Source: Escherichia phage buks. Taken from it: DNA of 40,308 bases. The position numbers were made by a program, and so were the translations under genes. The notes under the pieces were generated by a model. The model was not told the DNA's origin. It searched no databases and was given only the letters and a program-made list of their open reading frames with translations. This document shows, in pieces, positions 29,245 to 40,307 of this stretch. The stretch lies in the sequence record MN850616.1; one strand, 5' to 3'. The number at the start of each line of letters is the position of its first letter. The stretch's first letter is position 1.

Positions 29245-31431
29245 ATGTCAACAGGTAATCTAGCATACTCATGGTCGCGTAGCAATCGCCGTGAGGAACG
29301 CGCTGACATTAACGTTTACACCACGACTTCCGGCACCTGGGATGAGTTCGTTGAACTTATGCAGCCGCTTAAACGTTCGCGCCGGAACCCCAAGACAGAC
29401 CCCGGATATATCACCGCCGCGTGTACCGCCACGGTAAGCTCTACAGGTAAAGAAGCCGCCGAAGGTATGTTTTATCGCTGCAATGCGTCCGTAACGTCTT
29501 CGTCCCTGGCTTACGCCGACGTGGATAGTGCGACTCCGGAAGAGTTCGCCACTGATTGCGAGATGGTGCGTGAGTCGCGTTTCGCAATGATGCTCTACAC
29601 CACGGCATCCCACACCGAAGAAGCGCCACGCTATCGCATCGTTATGCCGGTGCGCACTCCGGTAACCGGCGGCGACATCATCCGCATCCGGTACGGTCTG
29701 CTGACGCATTTCCTTAAAGGCCGTGACGTAGATAGCGCGGGCTTCACCCTGTCGCAACCGATGTACCGCCCGCCAGTGGGAAGCCAGGTCATCGTGTCTG
29801 AAAGTAGCCGCATGATTACGGCAAGCAAGCTTATGGAGGGGGTGCCTGAAATTAACGTTACGGGTGCTTCCGATTATAAGGTGCCAGAGGGTGAGCAATC
29901 TGAGTTAACCGACCTGTTCGAAGAGTTCGCTTTCGAGTTCGGCGGCCGTATGACTGACCGTGGCCTGCAAATGCCGGCGACGCCAGAACATGCCGCCCAA
30001 TACTCGACGGGGGAACCGAAACAGGACGACTTCCTTTTCTGTTGGCCCCGCGATGGCTTCGAGCGCCCCAACGTAACCATGTACCATGACACCGACCTGG
30101 TGGCCACGGGTGGGATGACACCCGGCGGACGGGATATGTGGGTCTACGCTTGCACCGCTACCGGTTTGCCGTTTGACCGTGTAGAGGTAGCGCTTGGCTG
30201 GGCGCCCGGCGTTACTTGCGACGAAGAAGACCTGGCCGACGAAGAACCCCCGGCGCCGCAAGCGGATTTCATCGTCGAAGGATATATGCCGTCTAACTGC
30301 ATATGGGATATCGTCGGGGAATCCGGGACGTATAAATCGTTCTACACACTCGGCATGATGTATATCAGTGCTGCCGGGTACCGGTTCGCGGGGGCGGACA
30401 CCCGTAAAGCCCATCATTTCTATATTGATGGTGAGGGTGGGGAGTTCACGCACACCCGTATCGCTGCGTTGGCCGCTAAATACGGCGATGAAGGTATGCG
30501 GTATATGCATGTGCTTGACGCTGGTGAGTTTGCGGATACGAAGAAACTGGTTCGTAAAATGCGCCAGCTAGCGGGCAGTGAACCTGTCGGGATGGTTGCT
30601 TTCGATACGCTTAACCAGACCTTCGGAAACTGGATAGACAAGTTCAATGAGAACTCCGCGGGCCAGGACGGGATGGGGCGGGTAGTGGCGATGCTCAAAG
30701 AAGTACGCGACGGTACTAAAGGTGCTGTAGGTGTTGTCCACCACACCCCGAAAGGTGGGAGTAAGGCGCGCGGAAGTGGGGCGCTGTACGCCGGTGTCGA
30801 CGTCGAGCTTACGCTTGTCCGGGCGACCGAGAAACAAATAAACGTTGCACATACCAAGAACAAAAACGGTATGCAGCAGAAAACAATAGGCATGGTGCTT
30901 GAACCAGTACAGTTTCGCGAGGCCCCGCCGCCGAAAGAGTTCCAGGCTGTAGAATTCGTTGGGGGTGAGGGATACGGGGAAATCGTTAACCTAGACCTGC
31001 CGGAACCGCATAAAGCTCTTGTACTCATGCCGTGGGGCTTCCAACCGTTCGAAACGGACGAGGAAAAAGAGCGCAACGAAGGACTGGACGGTAAAGGTAA
31101 AGATTCCGTAAAGGATACAGTTAAACGGTCTAAAGATGCTTCCGCACGAGAATCGGTTATGTCTGCTCTCGAGGATTTACAGCAAGCCGATGATACCGGA
31201 CGAGGTTTCACACAACGGCAAATAGTCGCCAGGGCTGGGGACCACAGCATAACAAACTTGGTGCTCGAGAAGATGCTACGAGAGGGTGAATTGATGCTTG
31301 GTTGCGATGAGAATGGTGAAGTTGTAACGAATACTTACAGGTTGCCGACGGGTATAGATGACCGTAAGCGGCCAAAGAACAGGTATGAACCTAACGACAA
31401 CATAAAGACAACAGAAGGGGATTTAGAGTAA
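29245..31431 (+). CDS. Replication protein: primase-polymerase-like N-domain fused to RecA-like P-loop ATPase
   Basis: 728 aa; N-region with acidic motif AYADVDSATPEE; central Walker A-like GESGTYKSF and downstream ...VGVVHHTPKGG...; C-terminal winged-helix-like tail. Domain names are from recollection. Confidence 0.6.
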   Translation: MSTGNLAYSWSRSNRREERADINVYTTTSGTWDEFVELMQPLKRSRRNPKTDPGYITAACTATVSSTGKEAAEGMFYRCNASVTSSSLAYADVDSATPEEFATDCEMVRESRFAMMLYTTASHTEEAPRYRIVMPVRTPVTGGDIIRIRYGLLTHFLKGRDVDSAGFTLSQPMYRPPVGSQVIVSESSRMITASKLMEGVPEINVTGASDYKVPEGEQSELTDLFEEFAFEFGGRMTDRGLQMPATPEHAAQYSTGEPKQDDFLFCWPRDGFERPNVTMYHDTDLVATGGMTPGGRDMWVYACTATGLPFDRVEVALGWAPGVTCDEEDLADEEPPAPQADFIVEGYMPSNCIWDIVGESGTYKSFYTLGMMYISAAGYRFAGADTRKAHHFYIDGEGGEFTHTRIAALAAKYGDEGMRYMHVLDAGEFADTKKLVRKMRQLAGSEPVGMVAFDTLNQTFGNWIDKFNENSAGQDGMGRVVAMLKEVRDGTKGAVGVVHHTPKGGSKARGSGALYAGVDVELTLVRATEKQINVAHTKNKNGMQQKTIGMVLEPVQFREAPPPKEFQAVEFVGGEGYGEIVNLDLPEPHKALVLMPWGFQPFETDEEKERNEGLDGKGKDSVKDTVKRSKDASARESVMSALEDLQQADDTGRGFTQRQIVARAGDHSITNLVLEKMLREGELMLGCDENGEVVTNTYRLPTGIDDRKRPKNRYEPNDNIKTTEGDLE

Positions 31432-31797: not shown

Positions 31798-32334
31798 ATG
31801 TTAGAACAATTTATTAAATTATTTGAACGTTTCGTAGTTGCTCACGAACTGATTGCTGCGAACAGCGCGAAACAGACTGTGTACCAACTTAAAAGTGATA
31901 TCACCGCAGTAAACAAAGAGTTGATAGAAAAAGCGGTAGAAATGGCAGCACCGGATGAGCGCCGGGCTAGTTCTGCGGTGTGCAAAGCGTTAGAAAAAGA
32001 ACTGCCGGTAGAAGGTGAAAGCATTGTTGACACTAAACCGGCGGAAGAAGAGAAACCAAAACGCAAGACTCGTAAAGCTAAAGTAGAGGAACCCGCACCG
32101 GAACCGGAAGAAGAGAAAGAAGAAATTGATTATAAGTCTCTTCGCGACCAGATTCAGGCTATTGATGATGCGATTAACGAAGGCCCCAGCGATGCCGCGT
32201 GCGATGATTCTGATGAACTGCTGGAAGAGTTTACCGGTAAGAAAATGAAGATTGCCGCGATTAAAGACGAAGACCTGGCCGAGTACCTGGAACGCCTCAC
32301 GGCAATCAAGAACAAGTATTTCGAAGAAGAATAA
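31798..32334 (+). CDS. Acidic hypothetical protein
   Basis: 178 aa, Glu/Lys-rich central region; first gene after promoter 31738-31766. Confidence 0.5.
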   Translation: MLEQFIKLFERFVVAHELIAANSAKQTVYQLKSDITAVNKELIEKAVEMAAPDERRASSAVCKALEKELPVEGESIVDTKPAEEEKPKRKTRKAKVEEPAPEPEEEKEEIDYKSLRDQIQAIDDAINEGPSDAACDDSDELLEEFTGKKMKIAAIKDEDLAEYLERLTAIKNKYFEEE

Positions 32335-34742: not shown

Positions 34743-36944
34743 ATGAATCTGCTTTATCTCGATACTGAAACATTCTCAGAAGCCGATTTGAAAAAAGTCG
34801 GTTCCTATGCCTATGCCGAACATCCGACTACCGAAATTGTTATCTGCACCTACGCTTTCGATGAAGGCCCTGTGCAAGTATGGGACGCCACCGACGGCAG
34901 CGATATGCCGCGTGATTTGCGTCGGGCGATGCTAAAGCTGCAAAAACCAGACAGCAATCTCAAACTGGTAGGCCAAAACTTCCTTATGTTCGACCGACCA
35001 GTTATTAAGCATTGCTGGGGATTCGAACTCCTGGTAGAAAACATTATAGACACTATGATAGTCGCGTTCCGACATGCCCTCCCGGGTTCACTGGCCGCGC
35101 TGTGTGAGGTTTTAAACATTGACGCAAGCATGGCTAAGGATAAACGCGGTAAGGCGCTGATACAGCGATTCAGTAAGCCTACGCCCAAGAACTATAAGAT
35201 TCGACGTTATACTGCCGATACCCACCCAAAAGAGTGGGCAGAATTTATTGCATACGCAAAAAGCGACATTACGTCCATGCGTGAAGTGTATAAGAAAATG
35301 CCTAAGTGGGGGAATTCTGAGTTCGAAGACCGCGTGCTGCACTTAGACCAGGTGATTAATGACCGAGGATTTAAGGTTGATGTGGCATTGGCGGAAGCAG
35401 CGATTGAAGCAGTCACGCGCCATAAAGAAGAGTTACAGGAAGAAGCCCAACGTAAATATGGCGGTTCACTAACCGGCAAAGACTTCTTGCCTATTTTACA
35501 GGAACTAGCACCGGCACACCGCATCCACAACGCACAGAAGTCGACGCTTAACGACTTGCTGGCAGATGAGGATTTACCGGACGATGCGCGCACTATTATC
35601 GAGATGCGTCTCGGGGCTGCTTCCACCGCATCGACGAAATACGCGCCGTTGCTGTTAGGTCGTTCTTCCGATGACCGCCGTCGAGGTTGTCTGCAATACG
35701 GCGGAGCGAAGCGAACACTGCGATGGGCCGGGAAAGGTTTTCAGCCTCAGAACCTGGCGCGCGGATATTATCACGACGATGAACTTGATAAGGGTATTTC
35801 CGCATTACTTAAAGGCCGTGCACACCGCCGTTTTGATGTGGCCAAGCTAACGGCATCCACTGTCCGCAGCTGTATAATCCCGGAAGACGGGTGTAAGTTT
35901 GTTGTTGCGGACTATTCCAACGTTGAAGGGCGAGGGCTTGCCTTCCTGTCCGGGGAAGAAACAGCTCTTGATACTTTCCGCGCGGGTCTTGATATATACT
36001 GCGTAACGGCAGGAAAGATGTTCGGCATGGATCCAGATGATATTAAGAAAAACTTTAAGGATATCAGACAGATAGGAAAAGCTTGCGAGCTTGGCCTCGG
36101 CTATGAGGGTGGCGTCGGAGCGTTCGTTACATTCGCCAAAAACTTAGGTCTTGACCTTATTGAGATGGCCAAAACAATGGCCGGAACTTTCCCCGACCAT
36201 ATCTGGGCCGCTACCGCTCGCGGGTATGAGTGGGCGCGTATACAGGAGGCAAAACGGCCGCCGCGTCCGGGGGAGAAGGATGACCGTCCATCGTATATTC
36301 TCGATAAGAAAGTATGGCGTACATGTGATGCTATTAAACGTATGTGGCGTGAATCGCACCCGCAAACCGTAGCTTTCTGGTGCGACCTTAAAGACGGTAT
36401 TCTTGCCGCAGTACGTAATCCTGGCCGCGATTTCTGGGCGGGCGCAAATATCCGAAGCAACGGTGAAAGAGCTATCCGTATCTGGAGAACAGTAGAAACT
36501 GATTCATCCGGTAGAAACATCCCAGGATGGTGGCTATGCATGGAGCTGCCGTCGGGGCGAATCCTATCATATCCAGGAATAGGCGTCAGCGTGACAAAGG
36601 AAACCGACGAAGACGGGCGGGTAAACACCAATGTAAGAATTAAGTACCAGGGCGAGAACCAGTTAACACGGCAGTGGACTACCCTGTACACACACGGCGG
36701 AAAGGCTTGTGAGAACATCGTTCAGGCGTTTTGTCGTGACTTATTGGCCTACGCAATGCTTAATGTTGAGGCTGGCGGGTACCCTATAGTTCTTTCGGTT
36801 CATGATGAACTGGTATGCGAGACCCCGGATACGCCAGATTACACGGTGGCGGAACTGGAAAAACTGATGTGTGCATTGCCAGAATGGGCTGAGGGTTTCC
36901 CTCTTGTAGCGGAAGGTGCGGAGTTAAAACGCTATGCTAAGTAA
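34743..36944 (+). CDS. DNA polymerase I (family A) with 3-prime-5-prime exonuclease domain
   Basis: 733 aa; exo motif LYLDTETFSE; polymerase motifs ADYSNVEGRGLAFLSGE (motif A), RQIGKACELGLGYEGG (motif B), SVHDELV (motif C). Confidence 0.9.
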   Translation: MNLLYLDTETFSEADLKKVGSYAYAEHPTTEIVICTYAFDEGPVQVWDATDGSDMPRDLRRAMLKLQKPDSNLKLVGQNFLMFDRPVIKHCWGFELLVENIIDTMIVAFRHALPGSLAALCEVLNIDASMAKDKRGKALIQRFSKPTPKNYKIRRYTADTHPKEWAEFIAYAKSDITSMREVYKKMPKWGNSEFEDRVLHLDQVINDRGFKVDVALAEAAIEAVTRHKEELQEEAQRKYGGSLTGKDFLPILQELAPAHRIHNAQKSTLNDLLADEDLPDDARTIIEMRLGAASTASTKYAPLLLGRSSDDRRRGCLQYGGAKRTLRWAGKGFQPQNLARGYYHDDELDKGISALLKGRAHRRFDVAKLTASTVRSCIIPEDGCKFVVADYSNVEGRGLAFLSGEETALDTFRAGLDIYCVTAGKMFGMDPDDIKKNFKDIRQIGKACELGLGYEGGVGAFVTFAKNLGLDLIEMAKTMAGTFPDHIWAATARGYEWARIQEAKRPPRPGEKDDRPSYILDKKVWRTCDAIKRMWRESHPQTVAFWCDLKDGILAAVRNPGRDFWAGANIRSNGERAIRIWRTVETDSSGRNIPGWWLCMELPSGRILSYPGIGVSVTKETDEDGRVNTNVRIKYQGENQLTRQWTTLYTHGGKACENIVQAFCRDLLAYAMLNVEAGGYPIVLSVHDELVCETPDTPDYTVAELEKLMCALPEWAEGFPLVAEGAELKRYAK

Positions 36945-37653: not shown

Positions 37654-37845
37654 ATGAAATACGAATATGACCGCAAACCAGCACGTGACATCGTACCGGG
37701 TGACATGATTTTCAATGTTAAGACGCGTAGGCCTGTTGCCGTAGATACAGTATTTGTTGAGTCTAACGGTAAACTGGTTATTGAAGATGCAACCGGTAAC
37801 GTCACGGCGTTCGGGCGGAAGGAATTGGTTCTGGTGGCGAAATGA
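37654..37845 (+). CDS. Hypothetical protein (63 aa)
   Basis: ATG 37654 with AAGGAA RBS; stop overlaps helicase start (ATGA). Confidence 0.45.
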   Translation: MKYEYDRKPARDIVPGDMIFNVKTRRPVAVDTVFVESNGKLVIEDATGNVTAFGRKELVLVAK

Positions 37846-40307
37846 GTAAATTCACTAGAAGGCCTTATCAAAAGCTCATGACCTCGTTCATGCTGCGACA
37901 CCCGCGCTGTAATATCTGGGCAAGTATGGGAAGCGGCAAGTGCCTGAAACGCGGGACTGAAGTTATTATGTTTGACGGTACGACCAAGAAAGTAGAAGAC
38001 GTCATCGTCGGTGACGTGCTTATGGGGCCAGATTCAACGCCTAGAAATGTACTGTCTCTCGGTAGAGGCCGGGAGATGATGTACGAGGTTAAACCGCGAA
38101 AAGGCGAGTCATATACGGTAAACGAAAGCCATATATTATCACTGCGAACTACTACAGGTATCGCAAAAGGTTCATGGCCAGATAACACCGTTTTCGACAT
38201 AAGCGTCCGCGACTGGCTTAAGTTGCCGAAATATGTAACCGGGCCTAATGGGTATCTTAAGGGTTGGCGGGTACCTGTCGATTTTCCAAGGAAAGAGCAG
38301 GACGAGGCTTTATTGCCTCCGTACCTTATGGGGCTATGGCTGGGCGACGGTACTTCGTCGTCTGGGGCCATAACATCAGGAGAGAACGAAAAGGAAATAA
38401 GGGCGTATCTTGAGTCGTACGCAGCACGTAATGGGATGCAAATACGAAAAGAAGGACTTACATGGAGTATATCTCACGGCAACACAGGTCATAAGAAGCA
38501 CGGGTTTACACACGCGCTGAAATCGGCGGGTGTCCTGAACAATAAGCATATACCGCACAATTACAAATGCGGCGACCGGAGACAGCGTTTAGAGTTGCTG
38601 GCAGGGCTTCTGGATAGTGATGGTTACTGCGATTTGTCTAAAGCAGGTTTTGACTGGATTTCGGTAAGCGAGCGACTCGCTGATGATTTTTGCTATCTAT
38701 GCCGTTCTCTTGGTTTCGCAGCTTACAAGAAGAAAACTCGTAAGCGTTGCGCAAACACTGATGTTTGGGGGGATTACTTCCGCGTATCGGTATCAGGCGA
38801 TTTTTCTGATGTACCTTTCGTGCGTGGCCGCCACCAGAATTTACCGAAGCGTAATATTAATAAAAACGTACTTAACGTTGGAATAGAATCTATAACCCCG
38901 GTCGGCGTAGATGATTATTACGGCTTCACTATCGACGGTGACCACCGGTTTCTATTAGGCGACTTCACCGTAACGCACAACACAAGCTCGACAATGTGGG
39001 TGCTTAACCGGTTATTCCGTAATGGTCAGCTTAATGATGACGACCGGGTATTAATCCTCGCCCCGTTGCGTGTTGCGTCGGGTACGTGGCCCGCGGAACA
39101 AACTAAGTGGGGGTTCCCTTGCCTTCGTGTCATCGATGCAACCGGTTCGGAGAAGCGCCGCATAGCGGCGCTGGAGTCGGACGCTAATGTGGTGTGCACT
39201 AACTACGAAGTTATCGAGTGGCTGATTGATTACTACGGCAAAGACGACTGGCCTTTTACTGTTATCGTGGCCGATGAGAGCACGAAACTGAAATCTTTCC
39301 GTAGCCGTTCCGGCGGCAGCAAGAGAGCGAAGGCGCTTAGTAAAGTGGCGTTCGGCAAGGTTAAGCGTTTCATTAACCTGACCGGTACACCATCACCAAA
39401 CGGCCTCAAAGACTTGTGGGGTCAGAACTGGTTCATCGACGCGGGTGAACGCCTTGGGTCTTCATACACGGCCTTTACCGATAGATGGTTTAACTCGGTA
39501 CAGAAAGGCAAATCTGCGATGGCGCGGGAGTACCATGCTCGCCCAGGCGCGGATAACGAGATTCACCAGAAGATGAAGGATATCAGCCTTACCATTGATG
39601 CCGCCGAGTGGTTCGGTTGTGAAGCACCGGTTATTGTACCGGTTGAGATTGACCTGCCGAAGAAAGCGCGTCAAGCCTACATCGATATGGAGGAGAAGTT
39701 ATTCGCGGAACTGGAGAGCGGAGAAGTTGAAGCGGCTAACGCCGCCGCTAAAACGGCTAAGTGCTTGCAGATTGCTTCCGGTGCCGTGTATGTGTCGGGG
39801 CCGGATGGTGAAGCAACGAAAGACTGGGAGAAAGTGCACGACGCGAAACTCGATGCGTTAGAGTCCATTGTCGAGGAGTTGCAGGGTGCGCCGCTGCTGG
39901 TGGCCTATCAGTTCAAGCACGAACTTGAGCGCATTCTTAGGCGATTCCCCCAGGCGCAGGCGTTTGCGAAAGGTGCTAAGGGTAATAAGCAGATGGAATC
40001 TTGGAACCGCGGGGAAATCGAGATTTTGTGCGTGCACCCTGCATCGGCGGGCCATGGTTTGAATTTACAGGACGGCGGGCATCATCTGGCGTTTATTTCG
40101 CAAGGCTGGAACCTGGAGCACTATTTGCAGGTTGTCGAGCGTATAGGTCCTGTACGCCAGAAACAGGCTGGCCACGAGCGTCCAGTGTTCCTGTATCACA
40201 TAGTCGCTAAAGACACGCTGGATGAGGTCGTTGCCGCGCGTACGGACGAGAAAAAATCTGTCCAGGAAGAGTTGCTTAATTATATGAAGAGACGAGGTAA
40301 GAAATGA
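37842..40307 (+). CDS. SF2 (SNF2/DEAD-like) helicase interrupted by an in-frame intein; extein ~474 aa
   Basis: Continuous 821-aa ORF; Walker A GSGK is split from its Thr by a 347-aa insert; after the insert: TSSTMW...LILAPLRVASGTW...VIVADESTKLK...NLTGTPSPN... Confidence 0.85.
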   Translation: MSKFTRRPYQKLMTSFMLRHPRCNIWASMGSGKCLKRGTEVIMFDGTTKKVEDVIVGDVLMGPDSTPRNVLSLGRGREMMYEVKPRKGESYTVNESHILSLRTTTGIAKGSWPDNTVFDISVRDWLKLPKYVTGPNGYLKGWRVPVDFPRKEQDEALLPPYLMGLWLGDGTSSSGAITSGENEKEIRAYLESYAARNGMQIRKEGLTWSISHGNTGHKKHGFTHALKSAGVLNNKHIPHNYKCGDRRQRLELLAGLLDSDGYCDLSKAGFDWISVSERLADDFCYLCRSLGFAAYKKKTRKRCANTDVWGDYFRVSVSGDFSDVPFVRGRHQNLPKRNINKNVLNVGIESITPVGVDDYYGFTIDGDHRFLLGDFTVTHNTSSTMWVLNRLFRNGQLNDDDRVLILAPLRVASGTWPAEQTKWGFPCLRVIDATGSEKRRIAALESDANVVCTNYEVIEWLIDYYGKDDWPFTVIVADESTKLKSFRSRSGGSKRAKALSKVAFGKVKRFINLTGTPSPNGLKDLWGQNWFIDAGERLGSSYTAFTDRWFNSVQKGKSAMAREYHARPGADNEIHQKMKDISLTIDAAEWFGCEAPVIVPVEIDLPKKARQAYIDMEEKLFAELESGEVEAANAAAKTAKCLQIASGAVYVSGPDGEATKDWEKVHDAKLDALESIVEELQGAPLLVAYQFKHELERILRRFPQAQAFAKGAKGNKQMESWNRGEIEILCVHPASAGHGLNLQDGGHHLAFISQGWNLEHYLQVVERIGPVRQKQAGHERPVFLYHIVAKDTLDEVVAARTDEKKSVQEELLNYMKRRGKK
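37941..38981 (+). mobile_element. Intein with LAGLIDADG homing endonuclease domain, inserted in the helicase P-loop
   Basis: Starts with Cys codon TGC 37941-37943 right after GSGK; ends ...FTVTHN (Asn codon 38979-38981) followed by Thr; internal LAGLIDADG-like motifs LMGLWLGDGTSS and LLAGLLDSDGYC; 1041 nt, in frame. Confidence 0.8.

What the first reader, a model, noticed from the sequence alone, without database searches (positions are those of the whole stretch)
37941..38981. Full-length LAGLIDADG intein splitting the Walker A motif of the replicative SF2 helicase
In the helicase ORF the P-loop reads GSGK followed by Cys (37941-37943) instead of the expected Thr/Ser. A 347-codon in-frame insert follows, carrying two LAGLIDADG-like motifs (LMGLWLGDGTSS, LLAGLLDSDGYC), and ends ...FTVTHN immediately before TSSTMW, so splicing would regenerate GSGK-T. 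This is the canonical Cys1 ... His-Asn/Thr+1 intein architecture at a catalytic site. It means the phage depends on protein splicing to make a functional replication helicase and carries an active or relict homing endonuclease.
Basis: partly seen in the sequence, partly recalled or inferred. Interest (0 to 1): 0.65.

Follow-up and report, generated by a model that had tools for sequence, protein, structure and literature searches.

The report
Known intein in phage helicase P-loop
The helicase gene of this Salmonella phage (a Jerseyvirus) is interrupted, inside its ATP-binding loop, by a self-splicing protein element (intein) that carries a homing endonuclease; the element is real and intact, but it is already annotated and published for close relatives, so the finding is ordinary.

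Summary
ORF 37842-40307 (821 aa) reads ...SMGSGK|C at 37941-37943. A 347-codon in-frame insert follows (37941-38981), ends ...VTHN, and is followed by Thr (38982-38984). The insert matches Pfam Hom_end_hint (E 1e-23) and LAGLIDADG_3. It aligns end to end with yeast PI-SceI, and its AlphaFold model (pLDDT 93.4) hits PI-SceI first (TM 0.81). Natural intein-free alleles (SETP13, S4lw) read GxGK-T exactly at the predicted junction.

The window is 99.9% identical to Salmonella phage blauehaus. The same intein is annotated in vB_SenS-Ent2/Ent3, T102 and Shashou, flagged in SETP3, and included in a 2013 intein tree. About 184 of 452 related phage records carry it. GK|T is the published "classic" P-loop intein site.

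Purifying selection (dN/dS 0.03-0.09, endonuclease domain included) and lower synonymous divergence in the intein than in its host gene suggest an active, recently mobile element.

One correction: the host protein is an SNF2-family ATPase. A separate primase-helicase gene (29245-31431) is the likelier replicative helicase.

Verdict: real, well supported, already known, low interest.

The parts
37842..37940 (+). N-extein of the SNF2-family helicase (33 codons), ending in the first half of Walker A / motif I: ...SMGSGK
   Evidence: The start ATG overlaps the stop of the upstream 63-aa ORF (ATGA at 37842-37845).
37941..38981 (+). Intein, 347 codons, 38.9 kDa, PI-SceI-like: a Hint splicing domain split by a LAGLIDADG endonuclease domain
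   Evidence: Pfam PF05203 E 1e-23, PF14528 E 9e-8, PF05204 E 3e-4. PI-SceI E 1.6e-17. AF2 pLDDT 93.4 and Foldseek PI-SceI TMq 0.81. Absent from SETP13 and S4lw alleles.
37941..37943 (+). Cys1, the N-terminal splicing nucleophile (block A)
   Evidence: Cys in 111 of 112 aligned metagenomic relatives.
38121..38132 (+). Block B, NESH (N61...H64), equivalent to PI-SceI N76...H79
   Evidence: (N61 and H64 conserved in at least 90% of 115 sequences)
38301..38840 (+). Approximate LAGLIDADG homing-endonuclease domain (intein residues ~121-300)
   Evidence: Secondary structure of the AF2 model. Matches to I-DmoI at E ~2e-5. dN/dS 0.04-0.09.
38325..38360 (+). LAGLIDADG motif 1, LMGLWLGDGTSS; D136 aligns with PI-SceI D218
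38544..38546 (+). K202, which aligns with PI-SceI K301 (endonuclease active-site lysine; that role is from my memory of the PI-SceI literature)
   Evidence: (at least 90% conserved)
38595..38630 (+). LAGLIDADG motif 2, LLAGLLDSDGYC; D227 aligns with PI-SceI D326
   Evidence: (D225 invariant, D227 at least 90% conserved)
38910..38981 (+). Blocks F and G, DDYYGFTIDGDHRFLLGDFTVTHN, with penultimate His346 and terminal Asn347
38982..38984 (+). Thr+1, the first C-extein residue and the Walker A Thr; nucleophile for trans-esterification
   Evidence: The +1 residue is T (84) or S (27) in the relatives.
38982..40307 (+). C-extein of the helicase (441 codons plus stop): the rest of the SNF2 ATPase core and the Helicase_C lobe
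29245..31431 (+). Context, not part of the intein: a separate primase-helicase (AAA_25 domain), the likelier replicative helicase of this phage

Best explanation
The insert at 37941-38981 is a bona fide class-1 intein of the PI-SceI type. It sits in the 'classic' P-loop site (GxGK|T) of the SNF2-family helicase of a Jerseyvirus that is 99.9% identical to Salmonella phage blauehaus. Inferred mechanism: the 92-kDa precursor is translated with its Walker A motif split. Cys1 then performs an N-S acyl shift, Thr+1 attacks the thioester, and Asn347 (assisted by His346) cyclises. This releases a 38.9-kDa intein and a 53.4-kDa helicase with a restored GSGKT. The freed intein, or the precursor, is a monomeric two-motif LAGLIDADG homing endonuclease. 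In mixed infections it would cut intein-free helicase alleles that carry its target. Recombinational repair then copies the intein and adjacent helicase sequence into the cut genome. The anatomy, homology, fold, precise boundaries and population pattern are shown here. Splicing chemistry and DNA cleavage are inferred from family membership.
For: Boundaries and residues. Profiles: Hom_end_hint E 1e-23, LAGLIDADG_3 E 9e-8, Hom_end E 3e-4. The alignment to PI-SceI runs end to end and keeps C1, D136 (=D218), K202 (=K301), D227 (=D326) and the terminal HN. The AF2 model has pLDDT 93.4 and pTM 0.92; Foldseek top hits are PI-SceI (E 4.9e-24, TMq 0.81), then the TliVMA intein, PI-PfuI and I-DmoI. Natural intein-free alleles align across the in-silico splice junction in a single piece (197 records cover at least 80% in one place). 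They read ...GAGKTGS (SETP13) and ...GGGKTSS (S4lw). Excision raises the SNF2-rel_dom score from 35.8 to 46.0 bits and recovers weak DEAD and ResIII matches that start at residues 7-8 but stay below Pfam's cut-offs. The same site, Cys1 and HN|T are kept in the 66-70% divergent alleles of Cornellvirus FSL SP-049 and Pantoea phage AH01. Purifying selection covers the endonuclease domain: dN/dS 0.03-0.09. In three of the four informative pairs the intein has lower synonymous divergence than the extein: Shashou 0.20 vs 0.94, SETP3 0.098 vs 0.367, Ent2 0.038 vs 0.127. Distribution is sporadic: the intein is in 184 of 452 records that hold this helicase. Among 50,697 phage records no intein-free allele matches the 80-bp healed target at more than 85%. 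GenBank already annotates the element as 'intein containing helicase precursor ... homing endonuclease of the LAGLIDADG type' in vB_SenS-Ent2, and also in Ent3, T102 and Shashou (PMC6776780). The literature calls GK|T the 'classic P-loop intein insertion' (PMC5050341) and lists SNF2/HepA among the top intein hosts (PMC4760082).
Against: No experiment shows splicing or cleavage for this intein, either here or in any paper I could reach. NCBIfam gave no above-threshold model. For T102 the intein and extein are about equally diverged (dS 0.24 vs 0.23), so not every pair indicates recent transfer. The lack of an intein-free allele with a matching target could also result from plain vertical inheritance of the intein within one helicase lineage.
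Confidence: 0.9

Rival explanations
1. It is a splicing-competent intein whose endonuclease is a relict: no longer cleaving DNA, inherited only vertically or by ordinary recombination of the whole helicase gene.
For: No cleavage data exist. For T102 the intein and extein dS are equal. The intein is shorter than PI-SceI (347 vs 454 aa), and the AF2 model covers only about 64-67% of PI-SceI (TMt), so part of the PI-SceI DNA-recognition region may be missing. Many LAGLIDADG inteins are known to be inactive (PMC8966425 title and abstract).
Against: Both catalytic Asp residues and the Lys equivalent to PI-SceI K301 are kept, and they are at least 90% conserved across 115 relatives. The endonuclease-domain dN/dS is 0.04-0.09, as low as in the splicing domain. 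The intein is less diverged than its host gene in three of the four informative pairs, including one across genera (Kagunavirus Shashou).
Confidence: 0.2
2. The intein has been co-opted as a post-translational switch (conditional protein splicing, for example redox control through Cys1) that times activation of the helicase ATPase during infection.
For: Its position in the P-loop guarantees an ATPase-dead precursor. The intein has persisted at this site across Jerseyvirus, Kagunavirus, Cornellvirus and a Pantoea phage. Published arguments for regulatory P-loop inteins exist (PMC4760082 discussion; titles PMC6195587 and PMC7360933).
Against: About 60% of related phages do without it, so it is dispensable for the lineage. 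Nothing in the sequence points to a sensor. An intact endonuclease under selection is what a selfish element predicts.
Confidence: 0.05
3. It is not a splicing element at all: a Hint-like or BIL-type insertion, or a native domain of this helicase that remains in the mature protein.
For: Only the absence of direct splicing data.
Against: Orthologous helicases lack the insert precisely. Cys1, block B NxxH, the terminal HN and Thr+1 are all present and conserved. The fold and sequence match an experimentally proven intein, PI-SceI. An insert retained in the P-loop would destroy ATP binding, yet the extein is under strong purifying selection (dN/dS 0.025-0.066).
Confidence: 0.02

Closest known systems
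Helicase intein of Salmonella phages vB_SenS-Ent2/Ent3, SETP3, wksl3 and T102, and of Escherichia phage Shashou (Guernseyvirinae)
   Same: It is the same element at the same site. Nucleotide identity over the 1041-nt intein is 94-99% for Ent2, Ent3, SETP3, wksl3, Shashou and T102; across all strong matches it is 92.7-100%. GenBank annotates it as 'putative intein containing helicase precursor' with a LAGLIDADG endonuclease. The SETP3 record notes the Hom_end_hint domain. It is mentioned in PMC6776780, and a SETP3 intein was placed in an intein phylogeny in PMC3749507.
   Different: Only point differences. In the nearest record (blauehaus, 99.9-100%) the gene is labelled plain 'helicase' and the intein is not annotated.
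PI-SceI (Saccharomyces cerevisiae VMA1 intein; PDB 1VDE, 1LWS, 1LWT)
   Same: The architecture is the same: a Hint domain interrupted by a two-motif LAGLIDADG endonuclease, with Cys1, block B NxxH, the catalytic Asp pair and Lys, and a terminal HN. Sequence E is 1.6e-17, Foldseek E 4.9e-24, TMq about 0.8.
   Different: It is 347 aa against 454 aa (about 22% identity). The extra PI-SceI residues are not covered by the model (TMt about 0.65). The host protein differs (SNF2 helicase vs V-ATPase subunit A), and the +1 residue is Thr rather than Cys.
'Classic' P-loop inteins (e.g. mycobacteriophage TerL1-a, DnaB-b, MCM-a, RFC-a)
   Same: They insert between the invariant Walker A Lys and the nucleophilic Thr/Ser (PMC5050341; PMC4760082). 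Of the 112 nearest metagenomic relatives of this intein, 111 sit in Walker A motifs of PhoH, DnaB, UvrD, thymidine kinase, dTMP kinase, AAA, ABC and ResIII/SNF2 proteins.
   Different: The host families differ. I did not test whether the named literature examples belong to the same intein clade as this one.
P-loop-to-P-loop intein transfer in Anaeramoeba (PMC10710043)
   Same: Related inteins occupy Walker A motifs of non-homologous proteins, which is the pattern seen among the relatives of this intein.
   Different: That is a eukaryotic genome with intragenomic spread. Here the relatives are scattered over phage and metagenomic contigs.

Membership tests
Class-1 intein (protein-splicing Hint domain) | In-frame insertion with exact boundaries that is absent from orthologous alleles | tested here: met
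   The in-silico spliced junction aligns in one piece to intein-free Jerseyvirus helicases. SETP13 reads ...GAGK-TGS and S4lw reads ...GGGK-TSS.
Class-1 intein (protein-splicing Hint domain) | Cys/Ser at position 1 (block A) | tested here: met
   TGC at 37941-37943. Cys in all 7 phage alleles and in 111 of 112 relatives.
Class-1 intein (protein-splicing Hint domain) | Block B (T/N)xxH | tested here: met
   NESH at 38121-38132. N61 and H64 are at least 90% conserved.
Class-1 intein (protein-splicing Hint domain) | C-terminal His-Asn followed by a Cys/Ser/Thr +1 residue | tested here: met
   ...VTHN|T at 38970-38984. Relatives end [HR]N and have T or S at +1.
Class-1 intein (protein-splicing Hint domain) | Hint fold | tested here: met
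   PF05203 at 84.9 bits against a cut-off of 32.1. AF2 pLDDT 93.4. Foldseek matches to PI-SceI, Prp8, gp41-1, DnaB and GyrA inteins.
Class-1 intein (protein-splicing Hint domain) | Autocatalytic excision with extein ligation | not testable with these tools
   Needs expression plus SDS-PAGE and MS. Predicted products are 53.4 and 38.9 kDa from a 92.3-kDa precursor.
LAGLIDADG homing endonuclease (monomeric, two-motif) | Two LAGLIDADG motifs, each with the catalytic acidic residue | tested here: met
   LMGLWLGDG with D136 and LLAGLLDSDG with D227 align with PI-SceI D218 and D326. PF14528 at 32.7 bits against a cut-off of 22.5.
LAGLIDADG homing endonuclease (monomeric, two-motif) | Pseudo-dimeric alpha-beta-beta-alpha-beta-beta-alpha fold | tested here: met
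   The model shows helix/strand repeats over residues 127-285. Foldseek matches to I-DmoI at E ~2e-5.
LAGLIDADG homing endonuclease (monomeric, two-motif) | Site-specific cleavage of the intein-free allele, and homing | not testable with these tools
   Only indirect support: sporadic distribution (184 of 452 records), intein dS below extein dS, endonuclease-domain dN/dS 0.04-0.09, and no unoccupied matching target.
SNF2-family SF2 helicase (host protein) | SNF2-related ATPase domain with motif I GxGKT | tested here: met
   The spliced product scores 46.0 bits against PF00176 (cut-off 24.9), and GSGKT is restored.
SNF2-family SF2 helicase (host protein) | Helicase_C lobe | tested here: inconclusive
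   PF00271 at 20.5 bits, below the 23.5 cut-off.
Replicative helicase of the phage | Being the replication-fork helicase, typically hexameric DnaB/gp4/primase-helicase type | tested here: not met
   The host is SNF2-type. A separate 728-aa AAA_25 protein (29245-31431) is annotated helicase-primase in blauehaus and JD01. The function of either protein is untested.

The most novel reading that the evidence does not exclude
The endonuclease may work as an interference weapon in mixed infections. It would cut intein-free helicase alleles of co-infecting Guernseyvirinae and drag flanking helicase sequence along by co-conversion, even across genera (Jerseyvirus to Kagunavirus). That would explain two results. 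No unoccupied allele with a matching target exists among 50,697 phage records. The surviving intein-free alleles are recoded at the site or carry a different homing-endonuclease gene (HNH) at the helicase 5' end.
Probability: 0.2. Interest if true: 0.4.

Novelty: already known. Interest (0 to 1): 0.12.

Why it matters
The practical value is for annotation. In the nearest GenBank record (blauehaus) and in many sister records the gene is labelled 'helicase', 'hypothetical protein' or even 'DarB-like antirestriction', with no intein feature. Those proteins are therefore 347 aa too long for any comparative or structural work. Biologically it is one more example of the well-documented preference of inteins for Walker A loops of replication and recombination ATPases. 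With about 180 intein-bearing and at least that many intein-free relatives among 452 sequenced records, plus cultivable hosts, the Jerseyvirus helicase would be a convenient system for measuring intein homing and co-conversion in phage co-infections. It opens no new question.

Tried and rejected
- NCBIfam scan of the whole ORF: only sub-threshold matches to SNF2 helicases and to intein-containing radical-SAM proteins, and no intein splicing-region model reported. It led nowhere.
- Papers: the Jerseyvirinae proposal (Anany et al. 2015, PMID 25663216), which may describe the inteins, is not held. The Felix O1 paper mentions SETP3 and inteins only separately. PMC8425127 mentions Jerseyvirus inteins only in the capsid morphogenesis gene.
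- The search for homologous proteins with the intein did not return the near-identical Jerseyvirus proteins. The best hit was 49% identical by BLASTP (about 50% in the later alignment), so it informed only on distant relatives.
- MAFFT placed the 33-residue N-extein of the intein-free alleles against the C-terminus of the intein. I read the junction directly from the DNA instead.
- Other-strand and other-frame ORFs inside the intein (37868-38371 on the minus strand, 167 aa; 38376-38558 on the minus strand; 38683-38886 on the plus strand) have no Pfam match at E <= 1 and are taken as spurious.
- A BIL or hedgehog-type Hint domain and a 'native helicase domain' were considered and rejected. The insert has the terminal HN plus Thr+1, contains a LAGLIDADG domain, and orthologues lack it precisely.
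- dS to FSL SP-049 and AH01 is saturated, so no dN/dS could be given for most regions of those pairs.
- My recollection that the old InBase registry lists SETP3, SETP5 and SETP12 helicase inteins could not be checked. It is memory only.
Full report
**1. Observation**

The window holds one long ORF at 37842-40307 on the + strand (821 aa). Its stop is one base from the window end.

- Codon 34 is TGC (Cys, 37941-37943). It directly follows ...ASMGSGK.
- From that Cys, 347 in-frame codons run to ...GDFTVTHN (Asn codon 38979-38981).
- The next codons read TSSTMW.
- Removing 37941-38981 in silico gives a 474-aa protein with an intact GSGKT.

Every coordinate in the finding is correct.

**2. What the insert is**

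*Profile and sequence evidence.* Against Pfam the insert alone matches three families:

| Family | E-value | Bits | Cut-off |
|---|---|---|---|
| Hom_end_hint (PF05203) | 1e-23 | 84.9 | 32.1 |
| LAGLIDADG_3 (PF14528) | 9e-8 | – | – |
| Hom_end (PF05204) | 3e-4 | – | – |

Against PDB sequences the best hit is the yeast VMA1 intein PI-SceI (E 1.6e-17). That alignment runs from residue 1 to the terminal HN. It superposes Cys1, D136 on D218, K202 on K301 and D227 on D326. The active-site roles of the PI-SceI residues are from my memory of the PI-SceI literature.

*Fold evidence.* An AlphaFold2 model was built on 115 aligned relatives. It is confident (pLDDT 93.4, pTM 0.92). Its Foldseek hits are, in order:

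- PI-SceI (E 4.9e-24, TM 0.81 on the query)
- the TliVMA intein
- PI-PfuI
- Prp8 inteins
- I-DmoI
- mini-inteins

*Conserved residues.* In the 115-sequence alignment, D225 is invariant. C1, N61 and H64 (block B NxxH), D136, K202, D227 and N347 are conserved in at least 90% of sequences.

*Other frames.* The antisense and alternative-frame ORFs inside the insert have no Pfam match and are taken as noise.

**3. The boundaries are real**

The window is a Jerseyvirus. The helicase gene is 99.9% identical to Salmonella phage blauehaus MT074473.

A 600-nt query made of the two flanks joined at the predicted splice point aligns in one uninterrupted piece to many related phages, including ZCSE9, SETP13, BPS11Q3, pink and wast. 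Read directly:

- SETP13 has ...NIWASMGAGK-TGSVLW.
- S4lw has ...NIWCGMGGGK-TSSTMW.

Excision also improves the host-domain match. SNF2-rel_dom rises from 35.8 to 46.0 bits, and weak DEAD/ResIII matches that begin at residues 7-8 appear, though they stay below Pfam's cut-offs.

The same site, Cys1 and HN|T are kept in much more distant alleles. These are Cornellvirus FSL SP-049 and Pantoea phage AH01, at 70% and 67% nucleotide identity in the intein.

**4. Population pattern and likely activity**

*Distribution.* Of 452 phage records that hold this helicase, 184 hold the intein. Of these, 179 are near full length.

*Selection.* Pairwise Nei-Gojobori estimates give dN/dS of 0.03-0.06 for the whole intein. 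The endonuclease domain alone gives 0.04-0.09. That is as constrained as the helicase exteins, at 0.025-0.066.

*Relative divergence.* In three of the four informative pairs the intein has much lower synonymous divergence than its host gene:

| Pair with the window | Intein dS | Extein dS |
|---|---|---|
| Shashou (a Kagunavirus of E. coli) | 0.20 | 0.94 |
| SETP3 | 0.098 | 0.367 |
| Ent2 | 0.038 | 0.127 |
| T102 | 0.24 | 0.23 |

T102 shows no such difference.

*Unoccupied targets.* A search with the 80-bp healed target found no intein-free allele more than 85% identical. The best is FSL SP-101; the rest are at or below 79%.

*Composition.* Intein G+C is 47.9%, against 53.1% for the extein.

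Together these results fit an endonuclease that is still functional and has moved recently, with flanking co-conversion or target recoding in the remaining empty alleles. They do not prove it. Vertical inheritance within one helicase lineage explains part of the pattern.

**5. Mechanism (inferred from family membership)**

- The 92.3-kDa precursor has its Walker A loop split and should be ATPase-dead.
- Standard class-1 splicing would then proceed in four steps:
  1. Cys1 performs an N-S acyl shift.
  2. Thr+1 carries out trans-esterification.
  3. Asn347 cyclises, assisted by His346.
  4. An O-N shift completes the ligation.
- The products would be a 53.4-kDa helicase and a 38.9-kDa intein endonuclease.
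- No experimental test of this particular intein was found in the papers I could search.

**6.

The host protein is an SNF2-family SF2 ATPase. It is not demonstrably the replicative helicase.

The same genome encodes a 728-aa protein at 29245-31431 with an AAA_25 (RepA/DnaB-like) domain. It is annotated 'putative helicase-primase' in blauehaus and 'replicative helicase-primase' in JD01.

The helicase sits in the replication and recombination module:

- a PD-(D/E)XK nuclease
- an Enc34-type SSB
- a family A DNA polymerase
- a VRR-NUC protein

It is a core, strongly constrained gene. Dependence on splicing is therefore plausible but unproven.

**7. Comparison with what is known**

The element is already described.

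- GenBank HG934469 (vB_SenS-Ent2) annotates 'putative intein containing helicase precursor'. It carries mat_peptide features for the extein and for an intein 'encoding splicing domains and a homing endonuclease of the LAGLIDADG type'.
- Ent3, T102 and Shashou are annotated likewise. The SETP3 RefSeq note cites the Hom_end_hint domain.
- The Shashou genome announcement states that the helicase contains an intein (PMC6776780).
- A SETP3 intein was placed in a published intein phylogeny near the PRP8 group (PMC3749507).
- The insertion point, between the invariant Walker A Lys and the nucleophilic Thr, is called the 'classic' P-loop intein insertion (PMC5050341).
- SNF2/HepA helicases are among the top 15 bacterial intein hosts (PMC4760082).

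**8. Wider relatives**

A search of metagenomic proteins returned 1171 relatives at E <= 1e-5. Those inspected are 40-50% identical in the alignment.

Of the 112 inspected, 111 sit in a Walker A motif:

- 75 at (G/S)K|T/S (74 GK, 1 SK)
- 35 at GKPG|TGK(S/T)
- 1 at GTR|SGKT

The hosts are many unrelated P-loop NTPases: PhoH, DnaB, UvrD, thymidine kinase, dTMP kinase, AAA, ABC, AAA_24 and ResIII/SNF2. All have Cys1, an [HR]N end and T or S at +1. Spread of related inteins among P-loops of non-homologous proteins has been reported for Anaeramoeba (PMC10710043). This too is an extension of known behaviour.

**9. Verdict**

The element is a known, annotated intein in the best-known kind of intein site. 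Novelty: already known. Interest: low (0.12).

The most novel reading not excluded is that the endonuclease acts as an interference weapon between co-infecting Guernseyvirinae. I give it a probability of about 0.2.

Noticed in passing
window 34743-36944 (empty site between 36083 and 36084): The family A DNA polymerase here (733 aa) is intein-free. The polymerase genes of Ent2, SETP3, T102 and JD01 are 3099 nt, and Ent2 annotates a 299-aa intein (CLHRH...LVAHN|C) inserted at ...RQIGKA|CELGLGYE. The window has the uninterrupted ...RQIGKACELGLGYE. So this phage carries the helicase intein but not the polymerase intein of its relatives.
   Followed up: partly
L003 (Salmonella phage S4lw) 2702-3199; also SE2 and vB_SenS-EnJE6: Some intein-free Jerseyviruses carry a free-standing HNH endonuclease gene (498 nt) inserted exactly at the 5' end of the helicase gene. 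Its first 8 codons (MSKLTRRP) copy the helicase start. The helicase then restarts downstream with a recoded N-terminus (MSKFRRREYQKIM...). Two different homing elements thus target the first ~100 nt of the same gene.
   Followed up: partly
L004 2924-3128 / L012 (Salmonella phage JD01 NC_073189) 30259-30463 and 31968-32218: In JD01 the first 77 nt of that HNH gene are fused, at an ATATT microhomology, to the last 128 nt of the intein (100% identical to the window). The frame is broken and the Walker A segment is missing. The last 251 nt of the helicase are duplicated just downstream at 99.6%. This is either a recombinant with a dead helicase or a mis-assembly of two phages.
   Followed up: partly
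proteins P0001-P0120 (alignment A2): The intein belongs to a large clade (1171 hits at E <= 1e-5) that sits almost exclusively in Walker A motifs of unrelated P-loop NTPases. It uses two registers: GK|T/S (75 cases) and GKPG|TGKS (35 cases, all in an unidentified ~600-aa protein family).
   Followed up: partly
L009 (Salmonella virus VSe101) helicase, intein residues ~141-150: A 5-residue tandem duplication (SGAIT-SGAIT) lies directly after LAGLIDADG motif 1, making that intein 352 aa.
   Followed up: no
window 37842-40307 versus GenBank records: Annotation is inconsistent across about 180 records. The same intein-containing gene is called helicase, DNA helicase, hypothetical protein, 'DarB-like antirestriction' (SeF1) or 'exonuclease' (a RefSeq Ent2 mat_peptide). 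Most records, including the 99.9%-identical blauehaus, have no intein feature.
   Followed up: no
window 37654-37845 and 37842: The 63-aa upstream ORF (no Pfam match; labelled 'CooT family nickel-binding protein' in S4lw) ends in an ATGA overlap with the helicase start codon. This suggests translational coupling.
   Followed up: no
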